64,000 nt of DNA from an uncultured Candidatus Bathyarchaeia archaeon. Lineage in GTDB: Archaea > Thermoproteota > Bathyarchaeia > TCS64. A program made the translations under genes and the position numbers. The DNA is taken from positions 1,768 to 65,767 of the forward strand of contig CAZAQI010000001.1 in assembly GCA_964487465.1 (NCBI GenBank), written 5' to 3'. Below are positions 21,926-46,521 of this stretch, piece after piece (positions within the stretch are counted from its first letter, which is position 1; each line of letters opens with the position of its first letter). The notes under the pieces were generated by a model that worked only from the letters and a program-made list of their open reading frames with translations, did no database searches and had not been told where the DNA came from.

Positions 21926-23044
21926 CTATTTCACCGGGTAAACTCTAAGGTCTCTTGGGAAGTGGGTTAACTCCTTTCCGCCGGTCTCAGTACATACGAC
22001 AGTGTCCTCAACCCTTACACCTATCTCATCTACAATGTATATCCCGGGTTCGTCTGTGAAAACCATGTTGGGCTCCAGTCTCTGCTTGTTATTCCGCACC
22101 ATGTAGGGGTGTTCATGAATCTCCATACCAAGACCATGACCCAGACGGTGGATGAAATATTCGCCATACCCAGCTTTTTCTATTACTTTTCTAGCCGCGA
22201 TATCTATGGATTCACAGGTTATACCGGGCTTGACTGCCTCTAGGGCAGCCCTGTTTGCAGCCAGAACGGTATGATATATCTCTCGTTGTTTTTCCGTGGG
22301 CGCCTCACCATAAAAGACGGTCCTAGTGCAGTCGCTCCAGTAACCATTGTATAAGCCACCCATATCCACCAGTACAAATTCACCTGGCTGAAGCTCTCTA
22401 TCACCAGCAGACCCATGAGGTAGGGCGGCTCTCTCGCCGAATAAGACACCGGCAAATGCTCTTGTGGCGCCTCTCTTCTGCATACCATTAACCATCAGTG
22501 ACTGTAACTCTTTCTCGGTCATACCTGTGTGCAGCTGGGCGAAGGCCTCCTCCATTGCCTCGTCGCTGATGCTACACGCTTTCTCGATATACTCTATCTC
22601 CTTATCGGTTTTCACCATACGCACGTAACCTAACTGGTCTCCCACATCGATGAACTCAGCACCAGGTAAACACCCTCTAAGACTGTTCACCCAGCCCCAT
22701 GGAGCCTCAACCGGTATACCTATCTTGGCTGCACCGTAGCCGGCGTTTTTTATGGTCTCTGCTAAAAGATCTACAGAGTCCTCGTGTTCATCCCATGTTT
22801 CCACCTTGTTGAACCAGGGCTCCTGACCCCGGAGTTCCTCCTCCAACTTGTTAACCAAGAAATAGGGTACACCATCCACAGGTATGACGGCGGCTGCGAG
22901 TCTTTCACTCAACCCGATGGAAAACCCCGTGTAGTAAGCTATGTTAGCTCCCGGGAATAGTAGCAATAAGTCTACGCCATCTTTCTCTAGTAAGTCAAGT
23001 ACTTGTTGACCTCTTTTCTTCTGGAATGTACTCAAGTTAATCAA
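21926..23044 (-). CDS. M24 family Xaa-Pro aminopeptidase/dipeptidase
   Basis: Pita-bread fold metal ligands (DMGGLYNGYWSDCTRT, HRLGHGLGMEIHEHP, VFTDEPGIY). Confidence 0.8.
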   Translation of the reverse strand: MINLSTFQKKRGQQVLDLLEKDGVDLLLLFPGANIAYYTGFSIGLSERLAAAVIPVDGVPYFLVNKLEEELRGQEPWFNKVETWDEHEDSVDLLAETIKNAGYGAAKIGIPVEAPWGWVNSLRGCLPGAEFIDVGDQLGYVRMVKTDKEIEYIEKACSISDEAMEEAFAQLHTGMTEKELQSLMVNGMQKRGATRAFAGVLFGERAALPHGSAGDRELQPGEFVLVDMGGLYNGYWSDCTRTVFYGEAPTEKQREIYHTVLAANRAALEAVKPGITCESIDIAARKVIEKAGYGEYFIHRLGHGLGMEIHEHPYMVRNNKQRLEPNMVFTDEPGIYIVDEIGVRVEDTVVCTETGGKELTHFPRDLRVYPVK

Positions 23045-23155
23045 AGAAGAAGACAGTAGTTATGGGTTTTAACGTCTCCGGCAGTCCATTGTTTCACCCA
23101 TCACTACTGTGCAAACATCTGGATGATTTAAAAACCTGTGAACCCAACCCAAAAC

Positions 23156-23305
23156 ATGGGTGAATTATTCAAAGTCAAGAAACAAGTTGGACCATGCGGC
23201 ATAACCTGTGGCACCTGTTTCCTAGGAGACGGAACCATGGCCAAGACCATGGCGGAGGCAAACAAATACATCAACATGTCAGGCATCAAGGAGTGGGCGG
23301 TATGA
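23156..23305 (+). CDS. DUF3795-like Cys-rich protein, N-terminal segment (PCGITCGTC motif)
   Basis: 49 aa: MGELFKVKKQVGPCGITCGTCFLGDG... It ends in an ATGA overlap with the next ORF. Inserting one G in the ggg run at 23295-23297 fuses it in frame with the next ORF. Confidence 0.4.
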   Translation: MGELFKVKKQVGPCGITCGTCFLGDGTMAKTMAEANKYINMSGIKEWAV

Positions 23306-23592
23306 TACCAAGGGACACAGAGATCAACGGGCCTGAGACAGAGAAAGCACTCAAGTGGATGAACAAGTACGCCTACTGCGCGGGCTACGAGGAGGGAGGA
23401 GGACCACCAGACTGCACCATCAGGGTATGTACACGCGAGAAAGACTACGATTTATGCAGTAAATGCACTGAACTGGACACCTGTGATAAACTCAACTGGC
23501 TTGGAGAACCAGAGACAATAAAAGAGAATCTACGTCGGAAAAAGGGTAAGACCAAGCGGGAGATAGCTGATGAGGCCCTGAGATCTAGTTAA
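23302..23592 (+). CDS. DUF3795-like Cys-rich protein, C-terminal segment (C-x-G-x6-C...C-x2-C-x4-C)
   Basis: MIPRD...YCAGYEEGGGPPDCTIRVCTREKDYDLCSKCTELDTCDKL. Together with the preceding ORF this resembles a single DUF3795 domain. The longer ORF-track start (23194, MRHNLWH...) overlaps the upstream ORF in another frame and is low-complexity. Confidence 0.45.
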   Translation: MIPRDTEINGPETEKALKWMNKYAYCAGYEEGGGPPDCTIRVCTREKDYDLCSKCTELDTCDKLNWLGEPETIKENLRRKKGKTKREIADEALRSS

Positions 23593-23633
23593 TTTCCTGA
23601 AAACTGGTTTATACCATTTCAACACTATTTTGT

Positions 23634-24548
23634 TTGATGAGCAGAAAACGGCCTAGCTACGATAAGGTCGTGGCAGCTGCCCTTGAGGTGTTTGAACAAT
23701 ATGATACAGCGATTACGCTGCGTCAGCTATATTATCGATTGGTGGCTAGGCTGCTCATAGAGAACACCATAAACAGCTACAAGCGATTAAGCAGGATAAT
23801 GGTGAAAGCAAGGGAGCAGGGTGACGTGCCCCTTAACTGTATCGAGGATCGTAGCCGACGTGTGCTGGGTCGTGGAGATACGGGTTATGAGTCAGCTGAG
23901 GAATATCTGAAGAGGAGGTTAAGTAGCCTTCAGGATAGTTGGAAAGGGTTCTCCATGCCCATGTGGGAGGACCAGCCAGTATATCTCCTGATTAGCCTAG
24001 AAAAAGATGCCTTGAGCAGACTCGTAAGCAGGGTTGGTAACCGGTACTCTGTTAGGACGTTCCCGACACGAGGTTATCCGAGTTTTAGCTATGTACAGAC
24101 CATGGCCAAGTATATGGAGACCAGACTCGGTGGAAAACCAACAGTGGTTCTCTATTTCGGTGACTTTGACCCCAGTGGCGTGGATATTGAAAGAGATTTG
24201 GAGGAAAGACTCACCCGTTATGGTGCAACCCAGTTCAAGGTAAAGAGAATCGCCCTAACACTAGATCAGATAAGAGAATACAATCTGCCACCCATGCCGG
24301 TTAAGCGAAGTGATGCCCGTTCTGAGAGCTTTCTAGCCGAATATGGTAACAAATCAGTGGAACTGGATGCCTTAGACCCTAATCTTTTCCAGGAGATTGT
24401 GGAGGAGGCCATAAGGAACAACATTGATGTACCGAAGTGGAATGCAAGGGTCCAGAAGATCAGGGAACTCCAGCAATGGATAAAAGGTAAGCTGGATGAC
24501 ATAGAGAAAATAATTGACGAGGAAATAGATAGCCTAGAGGATGCTTAG
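23634..24548 (+). CDS. Spo11/Top6A-like protein (5Y-CAP winged helix plus Toprim), stand-alone and short (304 aa)
   Basis: N-terminal AITLRQLYYRLV matches the R-x-[IL]-Y-Y catalytic-tyrosine motif of type IIB topoisomerase A subunits. Toprim acidic motifs: LLISLEKDALSRL (Glu), GYPSFS and VVLYFGDFDPSGVDIERDL (DxDPxG). C-terminal VELDALDP. No Top6B gene is adjacent. Confidence 0.6.
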   Translation: MMSRKRPSYDKVVAAALEVFEQYDTAITLRQLYYRLVARLLIENTINSYKRLSRIMVKAREQGDVPLNCIEDRSRRVLGRGDTGYESAEEYLKRRLSSLQDSWKGFSMPMWEDQPVYLLISLEKDALSRLVSRVGNRYSVRTFPTRGYPSFSYVQTMAKYMETRLGGKPTVVLYFGDFDPSGVDIERDLEERLTRYGATQFKVKRIALTLDQIREYNLPPMPVKRSDARSESFLAEYGNKSVELDALDPNLFQEIVEEAIRNNIDVPKWNARVQKIRELQQWIKGKLDDIEKIIDEEIDSLEDA

Positions 24549-25412
24549 CTTCTCTATTTCTCTCACGAAAGCTGCTGATTCATCCTCGGTCATAGCTCTC
24601 AGGGGTGCCTTTGGAATCCCGCAGTCAACGCCTCTGAGACGTAATGCTTCATAGTGGGGGGCCAAGGGTGGCTTCTGGAGCTTGCTTCTCAGCACGTTTA
24701 TCTCGAATTGTTTCCGTTTGGCTGCCTCTTGGTCATCTGACTTGATAGTTTTCAAAAAGTCTGCGTATATGTCTGGGAACCCGTTGGCGTATCCTGTTAT
24801 GGCTCCCTTGGCGCCCATAACCATCGCCGGGTAAATATAACTATCTGTACCGCAGATTACGCTAAAAGTATCTGGGAGTAACCTGATATAGTTTAAGACA
24901 TTAATAAAATCCCTGCTGCTATCTTTCACCCCCTGGATATTAGTTACTTTAGATAACTCCAGCATCATCTCTAGAGTCACAGCGTTGAGGGCTTGTCGTG
25001 GTATATTGTATATGTAGACGGGTAACTTCGTTGCGTCTGCAATCGATTTGAAGTGATTAAGGATGCTCTCCTCGTCAGGCTTCATGAAGTAAGGTGGAAC
25101 AGCTCCAACCGCGTCCACACCGGCTTTCTCGGCTTCCACTGCGAGACGTACGGCTTCCCCTGTGCTGGGTGCTCCAACGTGGGCTAGTAGTTTCACCCGG
25201 CCACGGGCTGCCTTGACTGATAGTTGATACATCTCTATTCTCTGATCTGTACGCATCACTGTGCCCAGTCCAGCTGTACCGCAAAGAAATAATCCATCCA
25301 CGCCTCCCTTCACCTGAAAATCTATGAGAGGCTTTACTGCTTCTTTCTTCAACTCGCCTCCCACTGTGAAAGGCGTTATGAGGGCTGTGATAATACCTGA
25401 TAATGGCTCCAT
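24534..25412 (-). CDS. DapA/DHDPS family class I aldolase, probably 2-keto-3-deoxy(phospho)gluconate aldolase
   Basis: GIITALITPF, GVDGLFLCGTAGLG, and a Schiff-base lysine region (YNIPRQ...). It is divergently paired with a KDG-kinase-like gene. Confidence 0.7.
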   Translation of the reverse strand: MEPLSGIITALITPFTVGGELKKEAVKPLIDFQVKGGVDGLFLCGTAGLGTVMRTDQRIEMYQLSVKAARGRVKLLAHVGAPSTGEAVRLAVEAEKAGVDAVGAVPPYFMKPDEESILNHFKSIADATKLPVYIYNIPRQALNAVTLEMMLELSKVTNIQGVKDSSRDFINVLNYIRLLPDTFSVICGTDSYIYPAMVMGAKGAITGYANGFPDIYADFLKTIKSDDQEAAKRKQFEINVLRSKLQKPPLAPHYEALRLRGVDCGIPKAPLRAMTEDESAAFVREIEKLSIL

Positions 25413-25490
25413 GGGTCATATAAGGTTGACTCGATTGTTATTATTTGTGCCAAATCTTATCCCGGTGAAAGCACAGTTTGGTTGAGTATT

Positions 25491-26438
25491 ATGAGCCCGG
25501 AAGTAATAAGTCTCGGAGAACCCATGGTGGAGTTCTGCGCCACAGAGGTTGGTAGATTAGGGGATGTATCCTTATTTAAGCGGGGATGGGGTGGAGACAC
25601 CAGTAATTTCGCCGTAGCAGCGGCTAGACAGGGCCTTGAAGTGGCGCATATTTGCAGGCTTGGGGGGGACGAGTTTGGACGAAGTTTCCTTGATTTATGG
25701 GAAAGCGAGGGGATGGATAATAGCAGAGTATTGGTGGACCCCGGTGGCTGGACAGCCATCTATATAATTAGCCTTATCGAGGGTGGAGACCATGATTTCA
25801 CTTATTATAGAGCTGGATCCGCTGCTAGCAGGTATAATGTGGATGATCTTGACCTTGATTACATTGGTGAAGCTAGTTACTTCCATACAAGTGGGATAAG
25901 CCTCGCTATTAGTCTAGAGGTAAGAGAAGCCGCCATCAAGGCACTCCAAACCGTGAAAGAGAACGGTGGATACAACAGCTTCGACATAAATATGAGAACT
26001 AAGCTATGGGACGTTGTGACAGCCCGAAGTAGCCTCGCTGAGGCTTTCAAGGTATGTGACGTGGTTTTCGCTAGCATGGAGGATATAAACACACTGTATG
26101 GTATCAAGAGCCCTGAGAAGGCTGCAGATCATCTCAGGGGATTAGGCGTTGACACCGTGGTTGTGAAACATGGAGATAAAGGATGCTTCGTGTCAAAGGA
26201 TGGACAAGAGTTCACCATGCCCGGATATAAGGTAGAAGTAGTGGATACCACTGGCTCGGGTGACGCCTTCGACGGAGCATGGATAAAAGGAATTGAGATG
26301 AACTGGGATCTGGAGAAGACAGCCAGCTTTAGCAATGCAGTAGGTGCCTTAACGGCAACTGGACTAGGAGCCGTCGCACCCATCCCTAGCTATGATGAGG
26401 CGGTTAACCTCATCAGGGAGCATGATGGAGTATGGTAG
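25491..26438 (+). CDS. kdgK: PfkB/ribokinase family sugar kinase, 2-keto-3-deoxygluconate kinase-like
   Basis: N-terminal GEPMVEF. Anion hole/ATP motif DTTGSGDAFDGAW. The ATG at 25491 is preferred over the TTG at 25482. Confidence 0.75.
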   Translation: MSPEVISLGEPMVEFCATEVGRLGDVSLFKRGWGGDTSNFAVAAARQGLEVAHICRLGGDEFGRSFLDLWESEGMDNSRVLVDPGGWTAIYIISLIEGGDHDFTYYRAGSAASRYNVDDLDLDYIGEASYFHTSGISLAISLEVREAAIKALQTVKENGGYNSFDINMRTKLWDVVTARSSLAEAFKVCDVVFASMEDINTLYGIKSPEKAADHLRGLGVDTVVVKHGDKGCFVSKDGQEFTMPGYKVEVVDTTGSGDAFDGAWIKGIEMNWDLEKTASFSNAVGALTATGLGAVAPIPSYDEAVNLIREHDGVW

Positions 26439-26893
26439 AGCAGGATATATTGAGGGCACGTATCAGCCGGGTTATCACTGCTACCCGTTTCCCCTTTGTG
26501 GGTCAAGAGGACTGGGATGAAACCCGAATCACCATAGCCAACGATCCCCAAGACCCTGAGTGGTTTTTTGAGACAGAGGAAGGACCACTTGCTCCCAGCG
26601 TAGTGGTGCTAAACAGGGATGGAACAGTCCGTGAATGCGGAGAAGTTGAGCTTGATGAGAACTACACAGAGGATCACGTGGAGAAATGGCGTACCATGAG
26701 CCAGTTAACGGGTCCCGGGGTAAAGTACAAGAAATTCTTCCTCTATGTCCCTGAGGGGAGCGAGGATAAGGCGTTGATATTATTGGAGGAAAATGGGATA
26801 GAGTACGCGGGTCTCAGATCATGGAGGCTGGATAACTGGAACCTAGTACTCACGCCGGTAAAGACTCCTGATATGGCCAAGGATCATCGTTGA
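26432..26893 (+). CDS. hypothetical protein (153 aa), translationally coupled to kdgK (7-nt overlap)
   Basis: Clean ORF. Acidic. No family recognised. Confidence 0.45.
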   Translation: MVEQDILRARISRVITATRFPFVGQEDWDETRITIANDPQDPEWFFETEEGPLAPSVVVLNRDGTVRECGEVELDENYTEDHVEKWRTMSQLTGPGVKYKKFFLYVPEGSEDKALILLEENGIEYAGLRSWRLDNWNLVLTPVKTPDMAKDHR

Positions 26894-28177: not shown

Positions 28178-28936
28178 TTGAACCTACTAATTCCAATAAT
28201 TCTCAGCACGATAGCGGGGAGCGCTACAGGAATCGGTGGACTCATAGTACTACGATTCGGGGATATCAGCGATAGAAAGATGGGGTTCCTTATGGGGTTT
28301 GCCGGTGGAGTTATGTTGGTTGTTAGTTTCATCGAACTTTACGCGGAGGCTATAAGCGTTTTATCTCCGTGGAAAGTTACTCTTGCATTCGCAGCGGGAA
28401 CACTGTTTATGATGGGTATAGACTTAACTCTCCCCCACATCGAATTCGGCTTATGGGAAGAAGGGATACAGGACCGTCATTTGTTCAACAGTGGTTTGTT
28501 GATAGCGGTTGGGATGTCGATTCATAACTTGCCTGAAGGTATAGTGGTCAGCGCTGGTTATGGGCATATACCAGAGCTGGGCATCCTTGTAGCCATAATG
28601 ATCTGTCTGCACAATATCCCTGAAGGCATAGCCACGGTTAGCCCATTAATTAACGCTGGGGTAAATAAGTGGAGGGCTGTGGGTCTCGCTACATTGAGCG
28701 GATTAATGGAAGCTGTGGGGGCGTTAATCGGGGTTGTCATAATCGCAGGCGCGGGTATGAATATTATTGGCTGGGGTCTAGGATTCGCTGCGGGGGTAAT
28801 GACCTATGTGACCATCGATGAGTTAATCCCTATTGCTCATGAATACTGTACACTTGACCACAAACACATGGTTTCTAGTGGTTTACTCTTGGGAATGTTA
28901 TTCGCCATGATTCTTGGACTAGTTCTTCACGTTTAG
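28178..28936 (+). CDS. ZIP family divalent metal transporter (ZupT-like)
   Basis: Duplicated HNxPEG signatures (SIHNLPEGIVV and LHNIPEGIA) in a polytopic membrane protein. Confidence 0.8.
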   Translation: MNLLIPIILSTIAGSATGIGGLIVLRFGDISDRKMGFLMGFAGGVMLVVSFIELYAEAISVLSPWKVTLAFAAGTLFMMGIDLTLPHIEFGLWEEGIQDRHLFNSGLLIAVGMSIHNLPEGIVVSAGYGHIPELGILVAIMICLHNIPEGIATVSPLINAGVNKWRAVGLATLSGLMEAVGALIGVVIIAGAGMNIIGWGLGFAAGVMTYVTIDELIPIAHEYCTLDHKHMVSSGLLLGMLFAMILGLVLHV

Positions 28937-30021
28937 AGGAGTCGGGGATTTTTAGTGAGTTGTTCGTAACCATCCTCCGTGACCACAACATTTTCCTCTA
29001 TCCTGACACCACCATAACCAGGTAAATATATTCCAGGTTCAACGGTGAATAACATCCCTGGTTTCAATATATCGACGCTGGTCTTGCTTAAAGATGGAAC
29101 AGGAAAACCACTTAATGGATGACCCAAACTATGAGGATAATCAGGGAACCCGTGATCCTTCAATACTTTTCTAGATATTTTATCCAGTTCCACGCATCTT
29201 ACACCGGGTTTGACATTGTCTATGACTGCCTGAACTGCTTCATCCATGGCTTTCAGCATCCGCTCTTTCTTCAAGTCTTCCCCCAAGAGATATGTACGTG
29301 TCTCATCAGCTGCATAGCCACTCACGGTTGGGCCCAAGTCTACTAACATGAACTCGTTTTTCTTTAACTCTCTGGGTGTAGGCCATCCGTGGCTGTAAGC
29401 TGATCTGGGTCCAGTTGATACTATTGTCTGGAAACTCAATGTCTCGGCTCCATGTCTCTGCATGGCATAATTAGCTTCAGCCGCTATCTCGGTCTCTTTT
29501 ACTCCAGCAGCCATTGCCTCTCTCGCTGCGCTGCATCCTATATCTGCTAGTTTGGAGACTTTTCTCTGATAGTGTATTTCCTCGGGGTATAGACCGAAGA
29601 AGACCTCGGGTATGATGGTGCCGGTTATATCTATTAGCTCTCCCTTCATCTCCTCCCGGTAGTACTCATAGTCGGAGTGATTCAGTGAGCCTAGATTAAC
29701 TCCTATCTTGGACCCGTCTTTCAGGTGTTGATTAGCGTACTCGGTTACATATTCACATGTTTTTTCTCTATTCTCGATGAGTTTGACGGGTAGCCAGCTC
29801 TCCTCCACTGTGCTGTTATAGTCTACACTGTAGACAAACAGGGCGGGGTTTCCATCTATAGGTATGATTAGCGCGGTTCCGCTAGTTGTGTCGGCTATTC
29901 GTTTGAATCTTGGCCCCATTCCCGGTCCACCATATAGCCACACAAGGTCTAGCTCCTGCTCAGTCATCTCATTCTTGAGGTGGTTGTACCGTTTTTTACA
30001 GAAATAAACGGGATCAGACAT
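28933..30021 (-). CDS. M24 family Xaa-Pro dipeptidase (second copy)
   Basis: DLGPTVSGYAADETRT, HGFPDYPHSLGHPLSG, FTVEPGIY. Confidence 0.8.
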   Translation of the reverse strand: MSDPVYFCKKRYNHLKNEMTEQELDLVWLYGGPGMGPRFKRIADTTSGTALIIPIDGNPALFVYSVDYNSTVEESWLPVKLIENREKTCEYVTEYANQHLKDGSKIGVNLGSLNHSDYEYYREEMKGELIDITGTIIPEVFFGLYPEEIHYQRKVSKLADIGCSAAREAMAAGVKETEIAAEANYAMQRHGAETLSFQTIVSTGPRSAYSHGWPTPRELKKNEFMLVDLGPTVSGYAADETRTYLLGEDLKKERMLKAMDEAVQAVIDNVKPGVRCVELDKISRKVLKDHGFPDYPHSLGHPLSGFPVPSLSKTSVDILKPGMLFTVEPGIYLPGYGGVRIEENVVVTEDGYEQLTKNPRLL

Positions 30022-43110: not shown

Positions 43111-45165
43111 ATGCTCATCCGTGAGGTAATACTAGAGAACTTTATGTCATACGAGTACGCCAGAGTACCCCTGAAAGAAGGGGTGAACGTGGTCTGCGGC
43201 CCCAACGGATCCGGGAAAAGCAGTCTACTACTGGGGATATGCGTCGCCCTCGGAGACACTTATACGGAAAGATCAAAGAAACTCAGCGACCTCATCAGAT
43301 GGGGGAGCGAGACAGCCAGGGTCACACTGATACTGGATAACACGTTTGGAGAGAACGGTTACAGACCAGTTCCCCAGTATAATATGGATGAGATTACACT
43401 CACAAGAACCCTGAGGGTAGATGGAAAATATGGTTTTAGGGTTAACCAGAGAAACGTGACCAAGGCGGAGGTAATGGGGCTTCTGCGAACCTATGGCTTC
43501 GACCCCACTAATATGCTGATAATCATGCATCAAGCCATGCCCAGCAAGTTCGCTAACATAAACCCCAAGGAGAGACTTCAGATATTGGAGGAAGCAGTGG
43601 GCTTCGATACATTCAGGGAAGACGTGATAGAGGCGAAGAAAAAACTCAGCGGGGTGCTGAGCGAGGAGGAGAGTCTCGGTAACTTGCTGAATCAAGCAAG
43701 GGAGACACTAAATTACTGGCGTGAACAGAATGAACGCCTTCAGGAGAAAAAGCAGTTAGATAAGAGACAGACGTTTCTACAGCAGGAGATGGCTTGGAGT
43801 AGGGTAATGTCCATGGAGGAACAGGTGGAGAAACTCCAAGAACAGCTAAAGGATACGGAAAAGGAGCTGTTTGAAGCAGAGGAGGAGATGGAGCAGAACA
43901 CCAAGCTAATAGTGGACAGCGAGCAAATGCTCCAGAATCTAAGAACCCAGCGGGAAGACCTCATCGAGAAACGTATCGAATCAGAGAGGATCGTCGGGGT
44001 AAGCGAACACAGCATCAACACGGCTAAAGACAGGCTCAATCAGCTAGAAGATAATATACTGGAGAGCAATCAACAGAGAAGACGATTCGAAACCAGCTAC
44101 AAGAACCTTTTAAACCAGCTAGAGATGGGCCCCACCAAGCTGGATGACTACTTCAAGCTCTTTGAGGAGCTAGAGGAGACACAGGTAGAGACATATGAGA
44201 ACCTAAGCAATCAGTTTCACGCACAGAGAAACACGATCCAGACCCAGTTAGAGACATATACTCGGCGGTTAACCACAGCAGAGGAAGAAGCCCAGAAAAT
44301 AGTAACAGAGATAAATCAACTGCGTGGGAGAATCGATAAAGCAAATGATCAATACATCGATAGTAGAATCAACCTGGCGTTACTGAAGGATCGGCGCCAA
44401 CGCCTGAACCGTAGAGTAGAGGCATTAAAGGCAGAGATGGATAGGGCTAACCGTGACCTGAATGACGCTGAAGCGGAGGCATTAATCAAAGGGCAGCGGA
44501 TCGAGACAGGGAGAACCGGGGAAGAGATTCTTAACGAGATAAGAAAGACTCAGGGAATCCTCATGGGGATGTCCAATATACCTGATGAAGCTGAGGAGAT
44601 GTACGAGAGCTACAACGAGACATTCAAAGAGATACAGCAGCGAATCGAGGAAGTAAAAGAGAACCGCCGTAAAATACTCAAGGAGATCGAGGAACGAAAC
44701 AAGAAATGGAGACAGGTAACAGAGAAACTCCTCGACGACGTTAATATACGGTACAAGGAGTTACTAAAGAGACTTCAGGCGAACGGAGAAGTCAGATTAA
44801 TCGACAGCCACGACATCGAAGAAGCAGGATTAGAGATATTCGTAGGGTTCAAAGGTGCTCCACCCAGCAGACTCGACCCGTACACGCATAGTGGTGGAGA
44901 GCGGAGCAGCAGCGTTATGGCGTTCCTGCTCTCACTACAACAAAATGTATTGAGCCCTTTCAGGGCTGTGGACGAGTTCGATCTCCACATGGATCCCCAG
45001 AATAAGGAGGCGGTTAGTGAGTTCATCGTGCAGACCATGGAGGGCACTGATGACCAGTACATGGCTATTACCCCTAGCCAGATTACCTTCAAGGGGAAAG
45101 ATGTGCACATTATCATGGTTCATAAAACGGAGACGGTCTCAGAGCCCACTGTAGTGGAGGAATAA
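43111..45165 (+). CDS. SMC-like ABC ATPase, hinge-less (684 aa): head-coiled coil-short apex-coiled coil-head
   Basis: Walker A GPNGSGKSS (31-38). Q-loop IIMHQAM. A roughly 390-aa heptad-rich coiled-coil region with a Gly-Pro break (LEMGPTKLDDY, residues 338-347) exactly at the protein midpoint and no hinge domain or CxxC hook. Signature THSGGERSS, Walker B VDEFDLHMD, H-loop VHIIMVHK. Confidence 0.75.
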   Translation: MLIREVILENFMSYEYARVPLKEGVNVVCGPNGSGKSSLLLGICVALGDTYTERSKKLSDLIRWGSETARVTLILDNTFGENGYRPVPQYNMDEITLTRTLRVDGKYGFRVNQRNVTKAEVMGLLRTYGFDPTNMLIIMHQAMPSKFANINPKERLQILEEAVGFDTFREDVIEAKKKLSGVLSEEESLGNLLNQARETLNYWREQNERLQEKKQLDKRQTFLQQEMAWSRVMSMEEQVEKLQEQLKDTEKELFEAEEEMEQNTKLIVDSEQMLQNLRTQREDLIEKRIESERIVGVSEHSINTAKDRLNQLEDNILESNQQRRRFETSYKNLLNQLEMGPTKLDDYFKLFEELEETQVETYENLSNQFHAQRNTIQTQLETYTRRLTTAEEEAQKIVTEINQLRGRIDKANDQYIDSRINLALLKDRRQRLNRRVEALKAEMDRANRDLNDAEAEALIKGQRIETGRTGEEILNEIRKTQGILMGMSNIPDEAEEMYESYNETFKEIQQRIEEVKENRRKILKEIEERNKKWRQVTEKLLDDVNIRYKELLKRLQANGEVRLIDSHDIEEAGLEIFVGFKGAPPSRLDPYTHSGGERSSSVMAFLLSLQQNVLSPFRAVDEFDLHMDPQNKEAVSEFIVQTMEGTDDQYMAITPSQITFKGKDVHIIMVHKTETVSEPTVVEE

Positions 45166-45166
45166 G

Positions 45167-45940
45167 ATGAGTGAGCTTGAGAGCGTCATAAACCTATGCA
45201 GGATGGTTCAGAGCGGTAAGATAGAGCCATTTGACATCGACTTCGACTATGTGATGAGCGTCATCAAGAAACATTATCCTAACATTAAGAACCCTAAGGA
45301 TTTCTGCTTAGACGCTGAGGCGCTGAGGGAGCTCAGTAACGTGCTTGAGCGCCAGAACCAGTGGATAGAGCACAAGTCCACGACGCTATACAAGGACCCA
45401 TTCATGCTGAGCCAGAGCCTATTAGCATTGGATATCGGAGCCATCGCGGATCTATTTCTCAGAACATGGCATCCATTGGTGGAGTTGGAGCAGATGAGCG
45501 CAGGCACTCTGGGAGCTAGCCTCGGGTACTGGGGGGACCTCGTTCCCATCGATGAGAGATGGCAAGACGAGGAGGTGGAGGAGAGAGAGACAGGCAGGAC
45601 CACCCGTGACGAGGTGCGGCGGATGGGGTTACTGCCAGAGGAAGGATTTACTGAGGTGATAGAGAAACTCTGGCAGGAGCTTGAGGAAAAAGTGGGATCT
45701 GGTGGGAGTATCGATTACTGGGACTGGATCGGTGCAGACACCTACGAGGAGACTGTTAACAGGGCTTATCTAACCGTATTCATGGTGGGTTACGGGTACG
45801 CGGGCGTCGAGTGGGACCAGTTAATGGATGAATACACTATTATCCATAAAGAGGAGCCCATACCGGACCCTGAGCAGGGAAAAGTAAGCCTACCAGTGCT
45901 AGTAGATTATGAGGAGTGGAAACTATGGCGAAACGAGTAA
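45167..45940 (+). CDS. kleisin-like protein (ScpA-like N-terminal and C-terminal winged-helix regions), tentative
   Basis: It starts 2 nt after the SMC-like stop. The N-terminus LESVINLCRMVQSGKIEPFDIDFDYVMSVIKKHY resembles the ScpA LDLLLHLI...IDIYDIPIAEITEQYL motif. The C-terminal TVNRAYLTVFMVGYGYAGVEWDQLMDEYTI resembles the ScpA WHD (FLALLELvk...leQ). Acidic linker in the middle. Confidence 0.5.
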   Translation: MSELESVINLCRMVQSGKIEPFDIDFDYVMSVIKKHYPNIKNPKDFCLDAEALRELSNVLERQNQWIEHKSTTLYKDPFMLSQSLLALDIGAIADLFLRTWHPLVELEQMSAGTLGASLGYWGDLVPIDERWQDEEVEERETGRTTRDEVRRMGLLPEEGFTEVIEKLWQELEEKVGSGGSIDYWDWIGADTYEETVNRAYLTVFMVGYGYAGVEWDQLMDEYTIIHKEEPIPDPEQGKVSLPVLVDYEEWKLWRNE

Positions 45941-46521
45941 GCAAGGCAGAGCAGCATTATCAACGTAAACTCAAGGACGCAGTGCATCTATTATTCTTCA
46001 CGCATCATAAATTACCCGGGGTTAGAGGCTGGGAGTTACGAAAGGAACTGGGATCCGACTGGCAGAACATCCTTGAGGTATTGGATAAACAGCTCCAACC
46101 ATTTGACCTCCAGGTCACCAGAGTACTTGATGACCCGGATATCGTTGACCCCACCAGTTCTCAGCTTCAGGACGCCAGATATTATATCACAATGAGAGGG
46201 ACCGTGGACCAGAAGACAGCCAAGACCATTGGGTGGCGTATAGATGATATCGCCGGATTAGCTGTATCCGTTGCTTATATTATCTCCAAGCAGGGAAAAT
46301 CCAGTAGACAGGACGTGGAGAGGGTTCTGGAGGAGAAGCTTCCCGGGTGGAGGGTGAAACTAAATATTGATCGTTACATCAATCAGGGGTATCTTGGTGA
46401 GGATGATCAGGGTATGCTATATCTTGATTGGCGTAGCAGAGCTGAGATAGACTCCAAGAAACTAGTGGACCTTGTGGTTAGCTATGGTAAAAGAGAGCAG
46501 GAAAAAACATCTAACGAATAG
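45925..46521 (+). CDS. tandem winged-helix (kite / ScpB-like) protein, tentative
   Basis: About 198 aa with two WH-like units: HLLFFTHHKLPGVRGWELRKELG... and LAVSVAYIISKQGKSSRQDVERVLEEKLPGWRVKLNIDRYINQGYL. It overlaps the kleisin-like stop by 16 nt. The ORF track offers a GTG start at 45916. Confidence 0.5.
   Translation: MAKRVSKAEQHYQRKLKDAVHLLFFTHHKLPGVRGWELRKELGSDWQNILEVLDKQLQPFDLQVTRVLDDPDIVDPTSSQLQDARYYITMRGTVDQKTAKTIGWRIDDIAGLAVSVAYIISKQGKSSRQDVERVLEEKLPGWRVKLNIDRYINQGYLGEDDQGMLYLDWRSRAEIDSKKLVDLVVSYGKREQEKTSNE

What the first reader, a model, noticed from the sequence alone, without database searches (positions are those of the whole stretch)
23634..24548. Stand-alone short Spo11/Top6A-like protein (304 aa) without a Top6B partner
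The protein has the two hallmarks of type IIB topoisomerase A subunits and Spo11:
- a winged-helix tyrosine motif, ITLRQLYYRLV (R-x-L-Y-Y);
- a Toprim domain with the catalytic Glu (LISLEKDAL) and DxDPxG (FGDFDPSG), plus GYPS and ELDAL.

It is about 70-90 aa shorter than canonical Top6A. It is flanked by unrelated genes: a DUF3795-like gene upstream and a convergent aldolase downstream. No GHKL/transducer (Top6B) gene is present.

Such lone mini Top6A-like proteins (Mini-A / Topo VIII-A-like / JetD-like Toprim nucleases) are poorly characterised. They may act as DNA-cleaving defence or recombination factors rather than topoisomerases. A hinge-less SMC-like/kleisin/kite module sits 19 kb away in the same window. 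Wadjet systems combine exactly those components with a Top6A-like JetD, so a functional link is conceivable even though the genes are not adjacent.
Basis: partly seen in the sequence, partly recalled or inferred. Interest (0 to 1): 0.75.

Follow-up and report, generated by a model that had tools for sequence, protein, structure and literature searches.

The report
Chromosomal Mini-A topoisomerase-like gene in Bathyarchaeia
This gene encodes a 'Mini-A' protein, a short stand-alone relative of the DNA-cutting subunit of topoisomerase VI and Spo11, a family so far described only from viruses and mobile elements; here it is a fixed chromosomal gene of Bathyarchaeia that is as conserved as DNA primase.

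Summary
The ORF is real. Its most likely start is the ATG at 23637, giving 303 aa. It is not an ordinary Top6A and not a JetD/Wadjet nuclease. It belongs to the known Mini-A subfamily of type IIB topoisomerase A-like proteins: phrog_6247 'DNA topoisomerase' E 7.7e-72, and 35-39% identity to proteins of 79 isolated phages. An AlphaFold model (pLDDT 94.6) best matches Top6A and Spo11, both full-length and for the N-terminal winged-helix domain alone. R30, Y34, E123, D177, D179 and E243 are invariant in 176 homologs; they match the Top6A catalytic tyrosine, metal site and R-E cleavage clasp. No GHKL partner was found in the window. The SMC-like gene 18.5 kb away shows no Wadjet signature.

The new point is context. 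The Bathyarchaeal sequences form one tight clade (100/100 NJ bootstrap; 64-100% identity inside, at most 52% outside). The gene sits at a fixed chromosomal site near PriS/PriL/GINS, is present in 8 of 8 informative PriL-anchored loci, and diverges in step with PriL. Its nearest relative lies in an integrase/primase-helicase element. It is most likely a captured mobile-element gene now serving the cell as a tyrosine-dependent DNA breakage enzyme. Its cellular role is unknown.

The parts
23608..23613 (+). TATA-like box (TTTATA) about 26 nt upstream of the ATG. It is probably the gene's own archaeal promoter and implies a leaderless or near-leaderless mRNA.
   Evidence: Read directly from the sequence. 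A TATA-like hexamer lies at the same distance in all 21 orthologous loci examined, including those with unrelated upstream genes. Promoter function is inferred, not shown.
23637..24548 (+). Mini-A coding sequence: 303 aa from the ATG plus the stop codon. The mechanical ORF begins one codon earlier, at TTG 23634.
   Evidence: P0001 is the identical 303 aa protein; phrog_6247 E 7.7e-72; AF2 model pLDDT 94.6.
23658..23969 (+). N-terminal winged-helix / 5Y-CAP domain (residues 9-112).
23721..23735 (+). RQLYY motif: R30 (clasp/DNA-binding arginine), Y33, and Y34 (predicted catalytic tyrosine).
   Evidence: R30 and Y34 are invariant in 176 of 176 homologs. They have the same R-x-x-x-Y spacing as M. 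mazei Top6A R102/Y106 (PMC13040014).
23976..24419 (+). Toprim domain (residues 115-262).
24000..24005 (+). E123-K124: the Toprim catalytic/metal-binding glutamate (LEKDAL).
   Evidence: Invariant in 176 of 176. Corresponds to Top6A E202. An intein in relative P0236 is inserted one residue before this Glu.
24162..24179 (+). DFDPSG: the DxD metal-binding pair D177/D179 and G182.
   Evidence: Invariant in 176 of 176. Aligns to DGDPYG of M. jannaschii Top6A.
24357..24374 (+). T2BI box VELDAL. E243 is the predicted partner of R30 in the cleavage-restraining clasp.
   Evidence: E243 is invariant. The box is VELDAL in 23 of 23 Bathyarchaeal sequences and WELDAL in 72 of 80 viral ones. The Mini-A signature is xWELDAL (PMC7671362). 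The Top6A R102-E342 clasp and hyper-cleaving E342Q mutant are described in PMC13040014.
24429..24545 (+). Long C-terminal helix with an acidic tail (residues 266-304). Role unknown; it is less conserved than the two catalytic domains.
   Evidence: The AF2 model shows one continuous helix over residues 266-303. Conservation within the clade is 0.61 for the helix and 0.31 for the tail, against about 0.8 for the catalytic domains.

Best explanation
The gene encodes a Mini-A protein. Mini-A is a roughly 300-residue stand-alone relative of the type IIB topoisomerase A subunit (Top6A/Spo11), made only of a winged-helix 5Y-CAP and a Toprim domain.

**Likely mechanism (inferred from homology, not shown)**
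- The protein works as a homodimer.
- Y34 of each protomer attacks one DNA strand. The Mg2+ site E123/D177/D179 assists it, probably the site of the partner protomer as in Top6A.
- This gives a staggered double-strand break with 5'-phosphotyrosyl links.
- The invariant R30-E243 pair is the equivalent of the Top6A R102-E342 clasp that restrains cleavage. This suggests controlled, reversible breakage rather than free nuclease activity.
- There is no ATPase or strand-passage subunit, so it is not a canonical ATP-driven topoisomerase.

**Genomic status (shown)**
- Unlike the described Mini-As, which are viral or proviral, this copy belongs to one Bathyarchaeia-specific clade.
- The clade sits at a stable chromosomal site near the PriS/PriL/GINS genes.
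- The gene has its own conserved promoter geometry.
- It co-diverges with PriL and is as conserved as PriL.

**Origin and role (inferred)**
- It is most likely a gene captured from the replication/recombination module of an integrated element or virus.
- It is now kept for a cellular DNA replication, recombination or chromosome-processing function.
For: **Family and fold**
- phrog_6247 'DNA topoisomerase' matches full length at E 7.7e-72.
- 79 isolated phage genomes carry 35-39% identical genes annotated as DNA topoisomerase or hypothetical protein.
- 7,845 cluster representatives match, and those listed are about 300 aa.
- The AF2 model has pLDDT 94.6. The top four Foldseek hits are M. mazei Top6A at probability 1.0.

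**Active site**
- R30, Y34, E123, K124, D177, D179, G182 and E243 are invariant in 176 sequences.
- They map onto the residues shown to act in Top6A (PMC13040014).

**Chromosomal and vertically inherited**
- Neighbours are housekeeping genes. GC and GC3 match the neighbours.
- Synteny holds down to about 72% identity while the adjacent DHDPS/PfkB genes come and go.
- 8 of 8 informative PriL-anchored metagenome loci carry the gene.
- Pairwise identity correlates with PriL at r = 0.86 over 66 pairs, with means of 75.7% for Mini-A and 74.2% for PriL.
- The clade is monophyletic in 100 of 100 NJ bootstraps. Identity is 64-100% inside and at most 52% outside.
- The TATA-like box is conserved in position in all 21 loci.

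**Mobile-element origin**
- The nearest relative, P0125, lies between an integrase and a Prim-Pol/D5 primase-helicase in a Bathyarchaeota MAG.
- The closest viral copies are in genuine tailed viruses.
- In Pseudomonas phage NP1 the gene sits between DNA ligase and Sak4, Cas4 exonuclease and helicase genes.
Against: - No Mini-A from any source has been characterised biochemically (PMC8185306; bioRxiv 2026). Cleavage, dimerisation and religation are all inferred from homology.
- Top6A alone is not an active topoisomerase without Top6B. Mini-A may therefore need an unknown partner or trigger.
- The 66-70% identity tier, which includes two complete chromosomes, has different though cellular neighbours. 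Relocation or transfer within the class cannot be excluded.
- The tree is distance-based and has no Top6A outgroup.
- Sampling of Bathyarchaeia was limited by pattern-based scans: 22 species-level genomes and 8 informative metagenome loci.
- dN/dS could not be estimated because synonymous sites are saturated.
- Whether the same genomes also encode canonical Topo VI was not testable here.
Confidence: 0.7

Rival explanations
1. The gene is still cargo of a cryptic integrated virus or plasmid, or a decaying remnant of one. It serves that element (for example as a replication initiator, as proposed for skuldviruses) rather than the cell.
For: The family is overwhelmingly viral: more than 577 hits in viral contigs and 79 isolated phages. 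The closest relative lies in an integrase/primase-helicase element of a Bathyarchaeota MAG. The literature describes Mini-A only from viruses and proviruses.
Against: - No integrase, capsid, terminase or ORFan run lies within about 10 kb in the window or in orthologous loci.
- Base composition is native.
- The gene keeps the same chromosomal slot across lineages that differ by about 30% in PriL.
- It was present in 8 of 8 informative anchored loci.
- All catalytic residues are intact, and 132 of 304 positions are at least 95% conserved within the clade.
Confidence: 0.07
2. It is a captured viral gene used for defence or superinfection exclusion, cutting incoming related elements. It might work with the SMC-like ATPase module 18.5 kb away, as JetD works with JetABC.
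Against: - MksG differs from Topo VI in the 5Y-CAP and catalytic tyrosine (PMC10123090), whereas this protein keeps both as invariant features.
- The SMC-like protein matches only generic SMC/ABC ATPase models, and its neighbours match no JetA/JetB model.
- There is no operon link.
- Primase-level conservation at a fixed locus is unlike the patchy, fast-evolving pattern typical of defence genes.
Confidence: 0.08
3. It is the catalytic core of a complete ATP-dependent type IIB topoisomerase, and its GHKL ATPase partner ('Mini-B', or the host Top6B) is encoded elsewhere in the genome.
For: Single-chain proteins exist that fuse a GHKL/Bergerat ATPase to an A-moiety that is 41-43% identical to this protein and carries the Mini-A type WELDAL box (P0183, P0192). 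Their relatives occur in Nitrososphaerota and Thermoproteota archaea. The retained R30-E243 clasp suggests that cleavage is gated by something.
Against: - No homolog of that ATPase moiety was found in the window, in 482 kb of Bathyarchaeal loci, or next to any of 84 viral Mini-A genes.
- Only 20 such proteins were found in the whole database.
- Mini-A lacks the N-terminal 5Y-CAP segment that binds Top6B (PMC7671362; here the tyrosine is residue 34, against 106 in M. mazei Top6A).
Confidence: 0.08
4. It is simply the organism's ordinary Top6A, annotated short, with top6B elsewhere.
For: The fold and catalytic motifs are those of Top6A.
Against: - There is no Pfam TP6A_N or TOP6A-Spo11_Toprim hit.
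- The family profile reaches Top6A only at E 0.015, and only over the Toprim domain.
- Structure-based identity to Top6A is 13-21%, against 35-39% to phage Mini-As.
- The roughly 300 aa length is conserved among the about 150 best of 7,845 cluster representatives.
- The ELDAL box is the Mini-A signature.
- Archaeal top6A normally sits next to top6B (PMC7671362).
Confidence: 0.02

Closest known systems
Mini-A (Topo mini-A) subfamily of type IIB topoisomerase A-like proteins (Takahashi et al. 2019/2020, PMC7671362)
   Same: - About 300 aa, made only of a truncated 5Y-CAP and a Toprim domain.
- RxxYY motif, Toprim Glu, DxDPSG and the ELDAL T2BI box.
- No adjacent B subunit.
- Strong full-length profile match and 35-39% identity to phage members.
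   Different: - The described members are viral or proviral. This clade is a fixed chromosomal gene that co-diverges with PriL.
- The T2BI box is VELDAL rather than WELDAL in every clade member.
- There are 12 clade-specific conserved substitutions.
Topoisomerase VI A subunit (Top6A) and eukaryotic Spo11
   Same: The fold of both domains. The catalytic tyrosine, acidic metal site and R-E clasp residues. Dimeric double-strand cleavage chemistry is presumed to be shared.
   Different: About 70 residues shorter at the N-terminus, which removes the Top6B-binding part. There is no Top6B or Top6BL partner gene nearby. Sequence similarity is marginal: no Pfam hit and profile E 0.015.
JetD / MksG nuclease of Wadjet (MksBEFG) systems
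   Different: MksG/JetD lacks the Topo VI-type 5Y-CAP and catalytic tyrosine (PMC10123090) and is encoded in an operon with JetABC. Here the Tyr and 5Y-CAP are invariant, and no JetA/B/C genes are adjacent.
Topo VIII (plasmid-borne, B and A fused)
   Same: [quoted passage not shown]
   Different: Topo VIII carries a fused GHKL/transducer moiety, an RVELNAM box and a YxxRP motif. None of these is present here.

Membership tests
Mini-A | About 300 residues holding only a 5Y-CAP (winged helix) and a Toprim domain, with no ATPase moiety | tested here: met
   303/304 aa. The AF2 model shows two domains plus a C-terminal helix.
Mini-A | [quoted passage not shown] | tested here: met
   The catalytic Tyr is residue 34, against Y106 in M. 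mazei Top6A. The first helix of the winged-helix domain begins at residue 9.
Mini-A | Conserved Arg and catalytic Tyr in an RxxY/FY motif | tested here: met
   RQLYY. R30 and Y34 are invariant in 176 sequences.
Mini-A | Toprim Glu followed by DxDxxG | tested here: met
   E123 and D177-F-D179-P-S-G182 are invariant.
Mini-A | T2BI box with the xWELDAL signature | tested here: met
   The ELDAL core is present and E243 is invariant. W is replaced by V in all 23 Bathyarchaeal sequences and in 45 of 73 other representatives, so this is a common variant of the signature.
Mini-A | Sequence-level relatedness to accepted (phage) members | tested here: met
   phrog_6247 at E 7.7e-72 over residues 14-293. 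35-39% identity over about 88% of the length to Pseudomonas, Xylella, Salmonella and Flavobacterium phage proteins.
Mini-A | Encoded by a virus, provirus or other mobile element. This is a characteristic stated in the literature rather than a structural criterion. | tested here: not met
   Housekeeping neighbours, native composition, conserved synteny and co-divergence with PriL.
Topoisomerase VI A subunit (Top6A) | Matches the Pfam TP6A_N and TOP6A-Spo11_Toprim models above threshold | tested here: not met
   No hit for the window protein at E up to 10. Only 1 of 50 family members gave a weak Toprim hit.
Topoisomerase VI A subunit (Top6A) | Encoded next to top6B (GHKL plus transducer) | tested here: not met
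   No HATPase_c domain in the 30 other window ORFs scanned or in orthologous loci.
Topoisomerase VI A subunit (Top6A) | A canonical top6A/top6B pair elsewhere in the same genome, which would show this gene is an extra paralog | not testable with these tools
The literature says Topo VI is near-universal in Archaea (PMC9348778). No Top6A other than Mini-A appears in 482 kb of fetched Bathyarchaeal DNA.
JetD / MksG (Wadjet nuclease) | Full-length match to JetD models (DUF2220/DUF3322/DUF2399) | tested here: not met
   Only the Toprim stretch matches, at E 4e-4 to 5e-3 in PADLOC. Pfam DUF2399 scores 15.1 bits, below its 23.4-bit cutoff.
JetD / MksG (Wadjet nuclease) | Hydrolytic nuclease without the Topo VI-type 5Y-CAP catalytic tyrosine | tested here: not met
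   The protein has an invariant RxxYY in a Top6A-like winged helix. The MksG difference is stated in PMC10123090.
JetD / MksG (Wadjet nuclease) | Operon with JetA/JetB/JetC | tested here: not met
   The nearest SMC-like gene is 18.5 kb away and gives only generic ATPase hits. Its two neighbours have no JetA/JetB hits.
Topo VIII | B-moiety (GHKL plus transducer) fused or adjacent; RVELNAM T2BI box; YxxRP motif | tested here: not met
   There is no B-moiety. The box is VELDAL, and YYRLV follows the tyrosine.

The most novel reading that the evidence does not exclude
The Bathyarchaeal Mini-A is a virus-derived Top6A-like core that has become a housekeeping DNA breakage-and-reunion enzyme of the cell. 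It could be, for example, an ATP-independent decatenase or relaxase, or a maker of programmed double-strand breaks for recombination or replication restart. That would be a prokaryotic parallel to the recruitment of Top6A as Spo11, and the first cellular role for the Mini-A family.
Probability: 0.2. Interest if true: 0.85.

Novelty: new variant of a known kind. Interest (0 to 1): 0.55.

Why it matters
- Mini-A was named in 2019, and no function or activity is reported for it in the literature searched.
- A Mini-A lineage that is chromosomal, vertically inherited and as constrained as primase in a widespread archaeal class breaks that division.
- It shows that the A-only core can serve a cell. 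It also gives a well-conserved set of orthologs for biochemistry, with clear mutational predictions: Y34F, E123A, D177A/D179A, and E243Q for hyper-cleavage.
- It bears on how Spo11-like stand-alone DNA breakers evolve from topoisomerase or viral ancestors.
- If the gene instead proves to be ordinary mobile cargo, the finding reduces to one more Mini-A.

Tried and rejected
1. **Replication origin.** The window's cumulative GC-skew minimum falls at 22-24 kb, next to PriS/PriL/GINS. The fine-scale skew simply follows coding strand, and no ORB-like repeat set is present; there is only one 15-nt inverted repeat. Rejected.
2. **Wadjet link.** Rejected.
3. **Unlinked 'Mini-B'.** GHKL moieties of fused relatives found nothing in the window, in 482 kb of Bathyarchaeal DNA or in 84 viral loci.
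4. **Conserved partner gene.** The DUF3795-like upstream gene is present in only some lineages. No other neighbour is conserved across all tiers.
5. **dN/dS.** Synonymous sites are saturated (dS above 2), and the estimate failed for Mini-A. I used amino-acid identity relative to core genes instead.
6. **C-terminal PIP box.** None fits the consensus on reading the sequence.
7. **Text search 'Bathyarchae' plus 'mini-A'.** The hits were 'mini-array', which is irrelevant.
8. **Supplementary table of the Mini-A paper.** It lists the three known archaeal sequences, but it is not held.
9. **Single-sequence searches.** Pfam, NCBIfam and PDB sequence searches were uninformative.
10. **First phylogeny script.** It timed out and was redone with a faster method.
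Full report
**Observation.** The ORF at 23634..24548 (+) is present as described. All quoted motifs are at the stated positions: R30-Q-L-Y33-Y34, E123 in LEKDAL, D177-F-D179-P-S-G182, GYPS and E243-LDAL. The identical database protein (P0001) has 303 aa and starts at the ATG at 23637. Upstream lies a DUF3795-like gene. Downstream lies a convergent DHDPS-family aldolase that overlaps the 3' end by 15 nt. Further out are PfkB, an archaellin-type pilin, an M24 peptidase, ICMT, NUDIX, a methyltransferase, and PriL, PriS, GINS, L44e, S27e and eIF2-alpha. None of the 30 other window ORFs scanned has a GHKL domain.

**Family assignment.** Single-sequence searches were nearly blind. Pfam gave only a sub-threshold DUF2399 hit, NCBIfam gave nothing, and the PDB sequence search gave nothing. 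PHROGs gave a full-length match to phrog_6247 'DNA topoisomerase' at E 7.7e-72. tblastn found 35-39% identical genes in 79 isolated phages of Pseudomonas, Xylella, Xanthomonas, Salmonella, Flavobacterium and others, annotated as DNA topoisomerase or hypothetical protein. An exhaustive HMMER search found 7,845 clusters at 50% identity, and those listed are about 300 aa long. These properties match the Mini-A subfamily defined by Takahashi et al. (PMC7671362): about 300 aa, no N-terminal Top6B-binding part of the 5Y-CAP, RxxY/FY, Toprim Glu plus DxDxxG, an xWELDAL 'T2BI' box, and no B subunit.

**Structure.**
- An AlphaFold2 model built from a 50-sequence alignment has pLDDT 94.6 and pTM 0.81.
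- The four best Foldseek PDB hits are the M. mazei Top6A chains at probability 1.0. The yeast Spo11 core complex also appears.
- The family profile's best PDB sequence hit is the 1D3Y Toprim at E 0.015, with DxDPxG in register.
- An M. jannaschii Top6A Toprim fragment hits the Bathyarchaeal Mini-A genes directly, with a best E of 9.5e-5.

**Active site.** R30, Y34, E123, K124, D177, D179, G182 and E243 are invariant in 176 homologs: 23 Bathyarchaeal, 80 viral and 73 other. In M. mazei Top6A the equivalent residues are Y106, the acidic set E202/D254/D256/E342, and an R102-E342 'electrostatic clasp' that holds the tyrosine away from the metal site. The E342Q mutant cleaves far more than wild type (PMC13040014). 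Mini-A therefore keeps both the cleavage chemistry and the element that restrains it. That points to gated, probably reversible, tyrosine-mediated breakage rather than free nuclease action. This step is an inference from homology. No Mini-A has been characterised (PMC8185306), and as of 2026 its role is still only hypothesised.

**Not Wadjet.**
- PADLOC JetD models match only the Toprim stretch, and weakly.
[quoted passage not shown] This protein keeps both.
- The SMC_N protein at 43111-45165 matches only generic SMC/ABC ATPase models. The two genes after it match nothing.
- About 18.5 kb of unrelated genes and a tRNA-Val separate the two loci.

**Genomic status, the unexpected part.**
- A one-genome-per-species scan returned 25 loci, 23 of them at 66-100% identity. 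All of these are from Bathyarchaeia MAGs apart from one 3.4 kb contig binned as Aquificota that is collinear with a Bathyarchaeal contig. They include two complete chromosomes.
- The viral collection holds more than 577 relatives, but none exceeds 49% identity.
- In a 176-sequence distance tree the Bathyarchaeal sequences form one clade in 100 of 100 bootstraps. Identity is 64-100% inside the clade and at most 52% outside it.
- Orthologs at 80% identity or more share the whole neighbourhood. Orthologs at 72-77% keep PriL-MTase-ICMT-(M24/DUF3795)-MiniA-...-pilin-CxxC but gain or lose DHDPS, PfkB or the 153-aa gene. Orthologs at 66-70% have different but cellular neighbours: radical SAM/B12, a MobA-like transferase, an M28 peptidase, an XPD-like helicase, a PAS histidine kinase and an AIR-synthase-like protein.
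- Anchoring on PriL instead of Mini-A in metagenome contigs gives 8 of 8 informative loci (PriL at 68% identity or more) with Mini-A at the expected place. One distant lineage (PriL 52%) lacks it within 10 kb.
- Across 12 genomes, pairwise Mini-A identity tracks PriL identity (r = 0.86, 66 pairs). Mini-A is slightly more conserved than PriL (75.7% against 74.2%), and more conserved than the methyltransferase and ICMT and than PriS, GINS and eIF2-alpha.
- GC and GC3 match the neighbours.
- A TATA-like box lies 24-30 nt upstream of the ATG in all 21 loci examined, whatever the upstream gene. This suggests an autonomous, leaderless transcription unit.

**Origin.**
- The clade's nearest neighbour in the tree, P0125 (48% identity), comes from a Bathyarchaeota MAG. 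There it follows a tyrosine integrase, a run of ORFans and an 869-aa Prim-Pol/D5 primase-helicase, which is a typical integrated element.
- The next relatives lie in genuine tailed viruses, with a portal protein and terminase in one contig and a PolA-UDG fusion and methylase in another, or on a 94-kb ORFan-rich contig.
- In Pseudomonas phage NP1 the gene sits in the replication/recombination module between DNA ligase and Sak4, Cas4 exonuclease and helicase, downstream of primase.
- The simplest reading is a single capture of a mobile-element replication/recombination gene by an ancestor of this Bathyarchaeal lineage, followed by vertical descent under strong constraint.

**Side lead.**
- Two long representatives, P0183 (715 aa) and P0192 (773 aa), fuse a GHKL/Bergerat ATPase to an A-moiety that is 41-43% identical to this protein. 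The A-moiety carries the Mini-A type box (VWELDSL, TWELDAL), not the Topo VIII RVELNAM.
- Only 20 such proteins were found. Named ones come from Nitrososphaerota and Thermoproteota archaea, and some lie next to integrases or transposases.
- No homolog of that ATPase occurs in the window, in 482 kb of Bathyarchaeal DNA or beside 84 viral Mini-A genes.
- A Mini-A core can therefore work with a B-type ATPase in some lineages, but nothing suggests that it does so here.

**Limits.**
- All enzymology is inferred.
- The tree is distance-based and unrooted.
- Sampling was limited by pattern-based scans.
- dN/dS was saturated.
- I could not check whether the same genomes carry canonical Topo VI. The literature says it is near-universal in Archaea (PMC9348778).
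- I found no paper describing a chromosomal or Bathyarchaeal Mini-A, but the supplement listing the three archaeal Mini-As known in 2019 was not available.

**Verdict.** The protein is a member of the known Mini-A family. The new element is that it is a fixed chromosomal gene with primase-level conservation in Bathyarchaeia.

Noticed in passing
P0183, P0192 (loci L132, L133); relatives P0275-P0292 (L135, L136): A small family of about 20 proteins of 720-800 aa fuses a GHKL/Bergerat ATPase to a Mini-A-type A-moiety that has the WELDAL box rather than the Topo VIII RVELNAM. Named members are from Nitrososphaerota and Thermoproteota archaea, and some lie next to integrases or a transposase. This could be the 'Mini-B' that the Mini-A paper looked for, in fused form.
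   Followed up: partly
P0236 (674 aa): A Mini-A homolog is interrupted by an intein (Hint plus LAGLIDADG). The intein is inserted one residue before the catalytic Toprim glutamate (…YVECW | intein | CEKNTL…), as expected for a functionally critical site.
   Followed up: partly
window 43111-46521 (+): An SMC_N-type ATPase of 684 aa is followed by two co-oriented ORFs (257 and 201 aa) that have no Pfam or PADLOC match. Only generic SMC/ABC ATPase models match the ATPase. It is not a recognisable Wadjet, and its identity is open.
   Followed up: partly
L013 (QMPS01000205.1, labelled Aquificota bacterium): This 3.4 kb contig has the same gene order (NUDIX-ICMT-MiniA-pilin-CxxC) and the same identities to the window proteins as the Bathyarchaeia contig L010. 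It is almost certainly a mis-binned Bathyarchaeal contig.
   Followed up: no
L029 1-4565 (IMGVR_UViG_3300032156_000008): The viral contig with one of the closest viral Mini-As also encodes an adenylosuccinate-synthetase homolog (PurZ-like), a family A DNA polymerase fused to a uracil-DNA glycosylase domain, and a DNA methylase. This hints at a phage with modified DNA.
   Followed up: no
window 24534-26893; compare L009-L013, L115, L121, L127: The DHDPS-family aldolase, PfkB kinase and 153-aa gene next to Mini-A are variably present among related lineages. Mini-A and the pilin gene stay in place, so the site is an indel hotspot beside a stable gene.
   Followed up: partly
window 23053-23110: A 15-nt inverted repeat (93% complementary, 28-nt spacer) lies in the divergent intergenic region between the M24 peptidase and the DUF3795-like gene. 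It could be an operator or a hairpin.
   Followed up: no
window 23194-23592 (+): The mechanical 132-aa ORF upstream of Mini-A is probably shorter. On the JGI contig carrying the identical Mini-A (L001, 21.6 kb), the corresponding stretch is called as a 45-aa gene plus a 96-aa DUF3795-like gene. That gene is present upstream of Mini-A in only some lineages.
   Followed up: partly
window 21926-23044 and 28933-30021 (both -): Two paralogous Creatinase_N/M24 peptidase genes, about 30% identical, bracket the Mini-A region. Both are conserved in related genomes.
   Followed up: no
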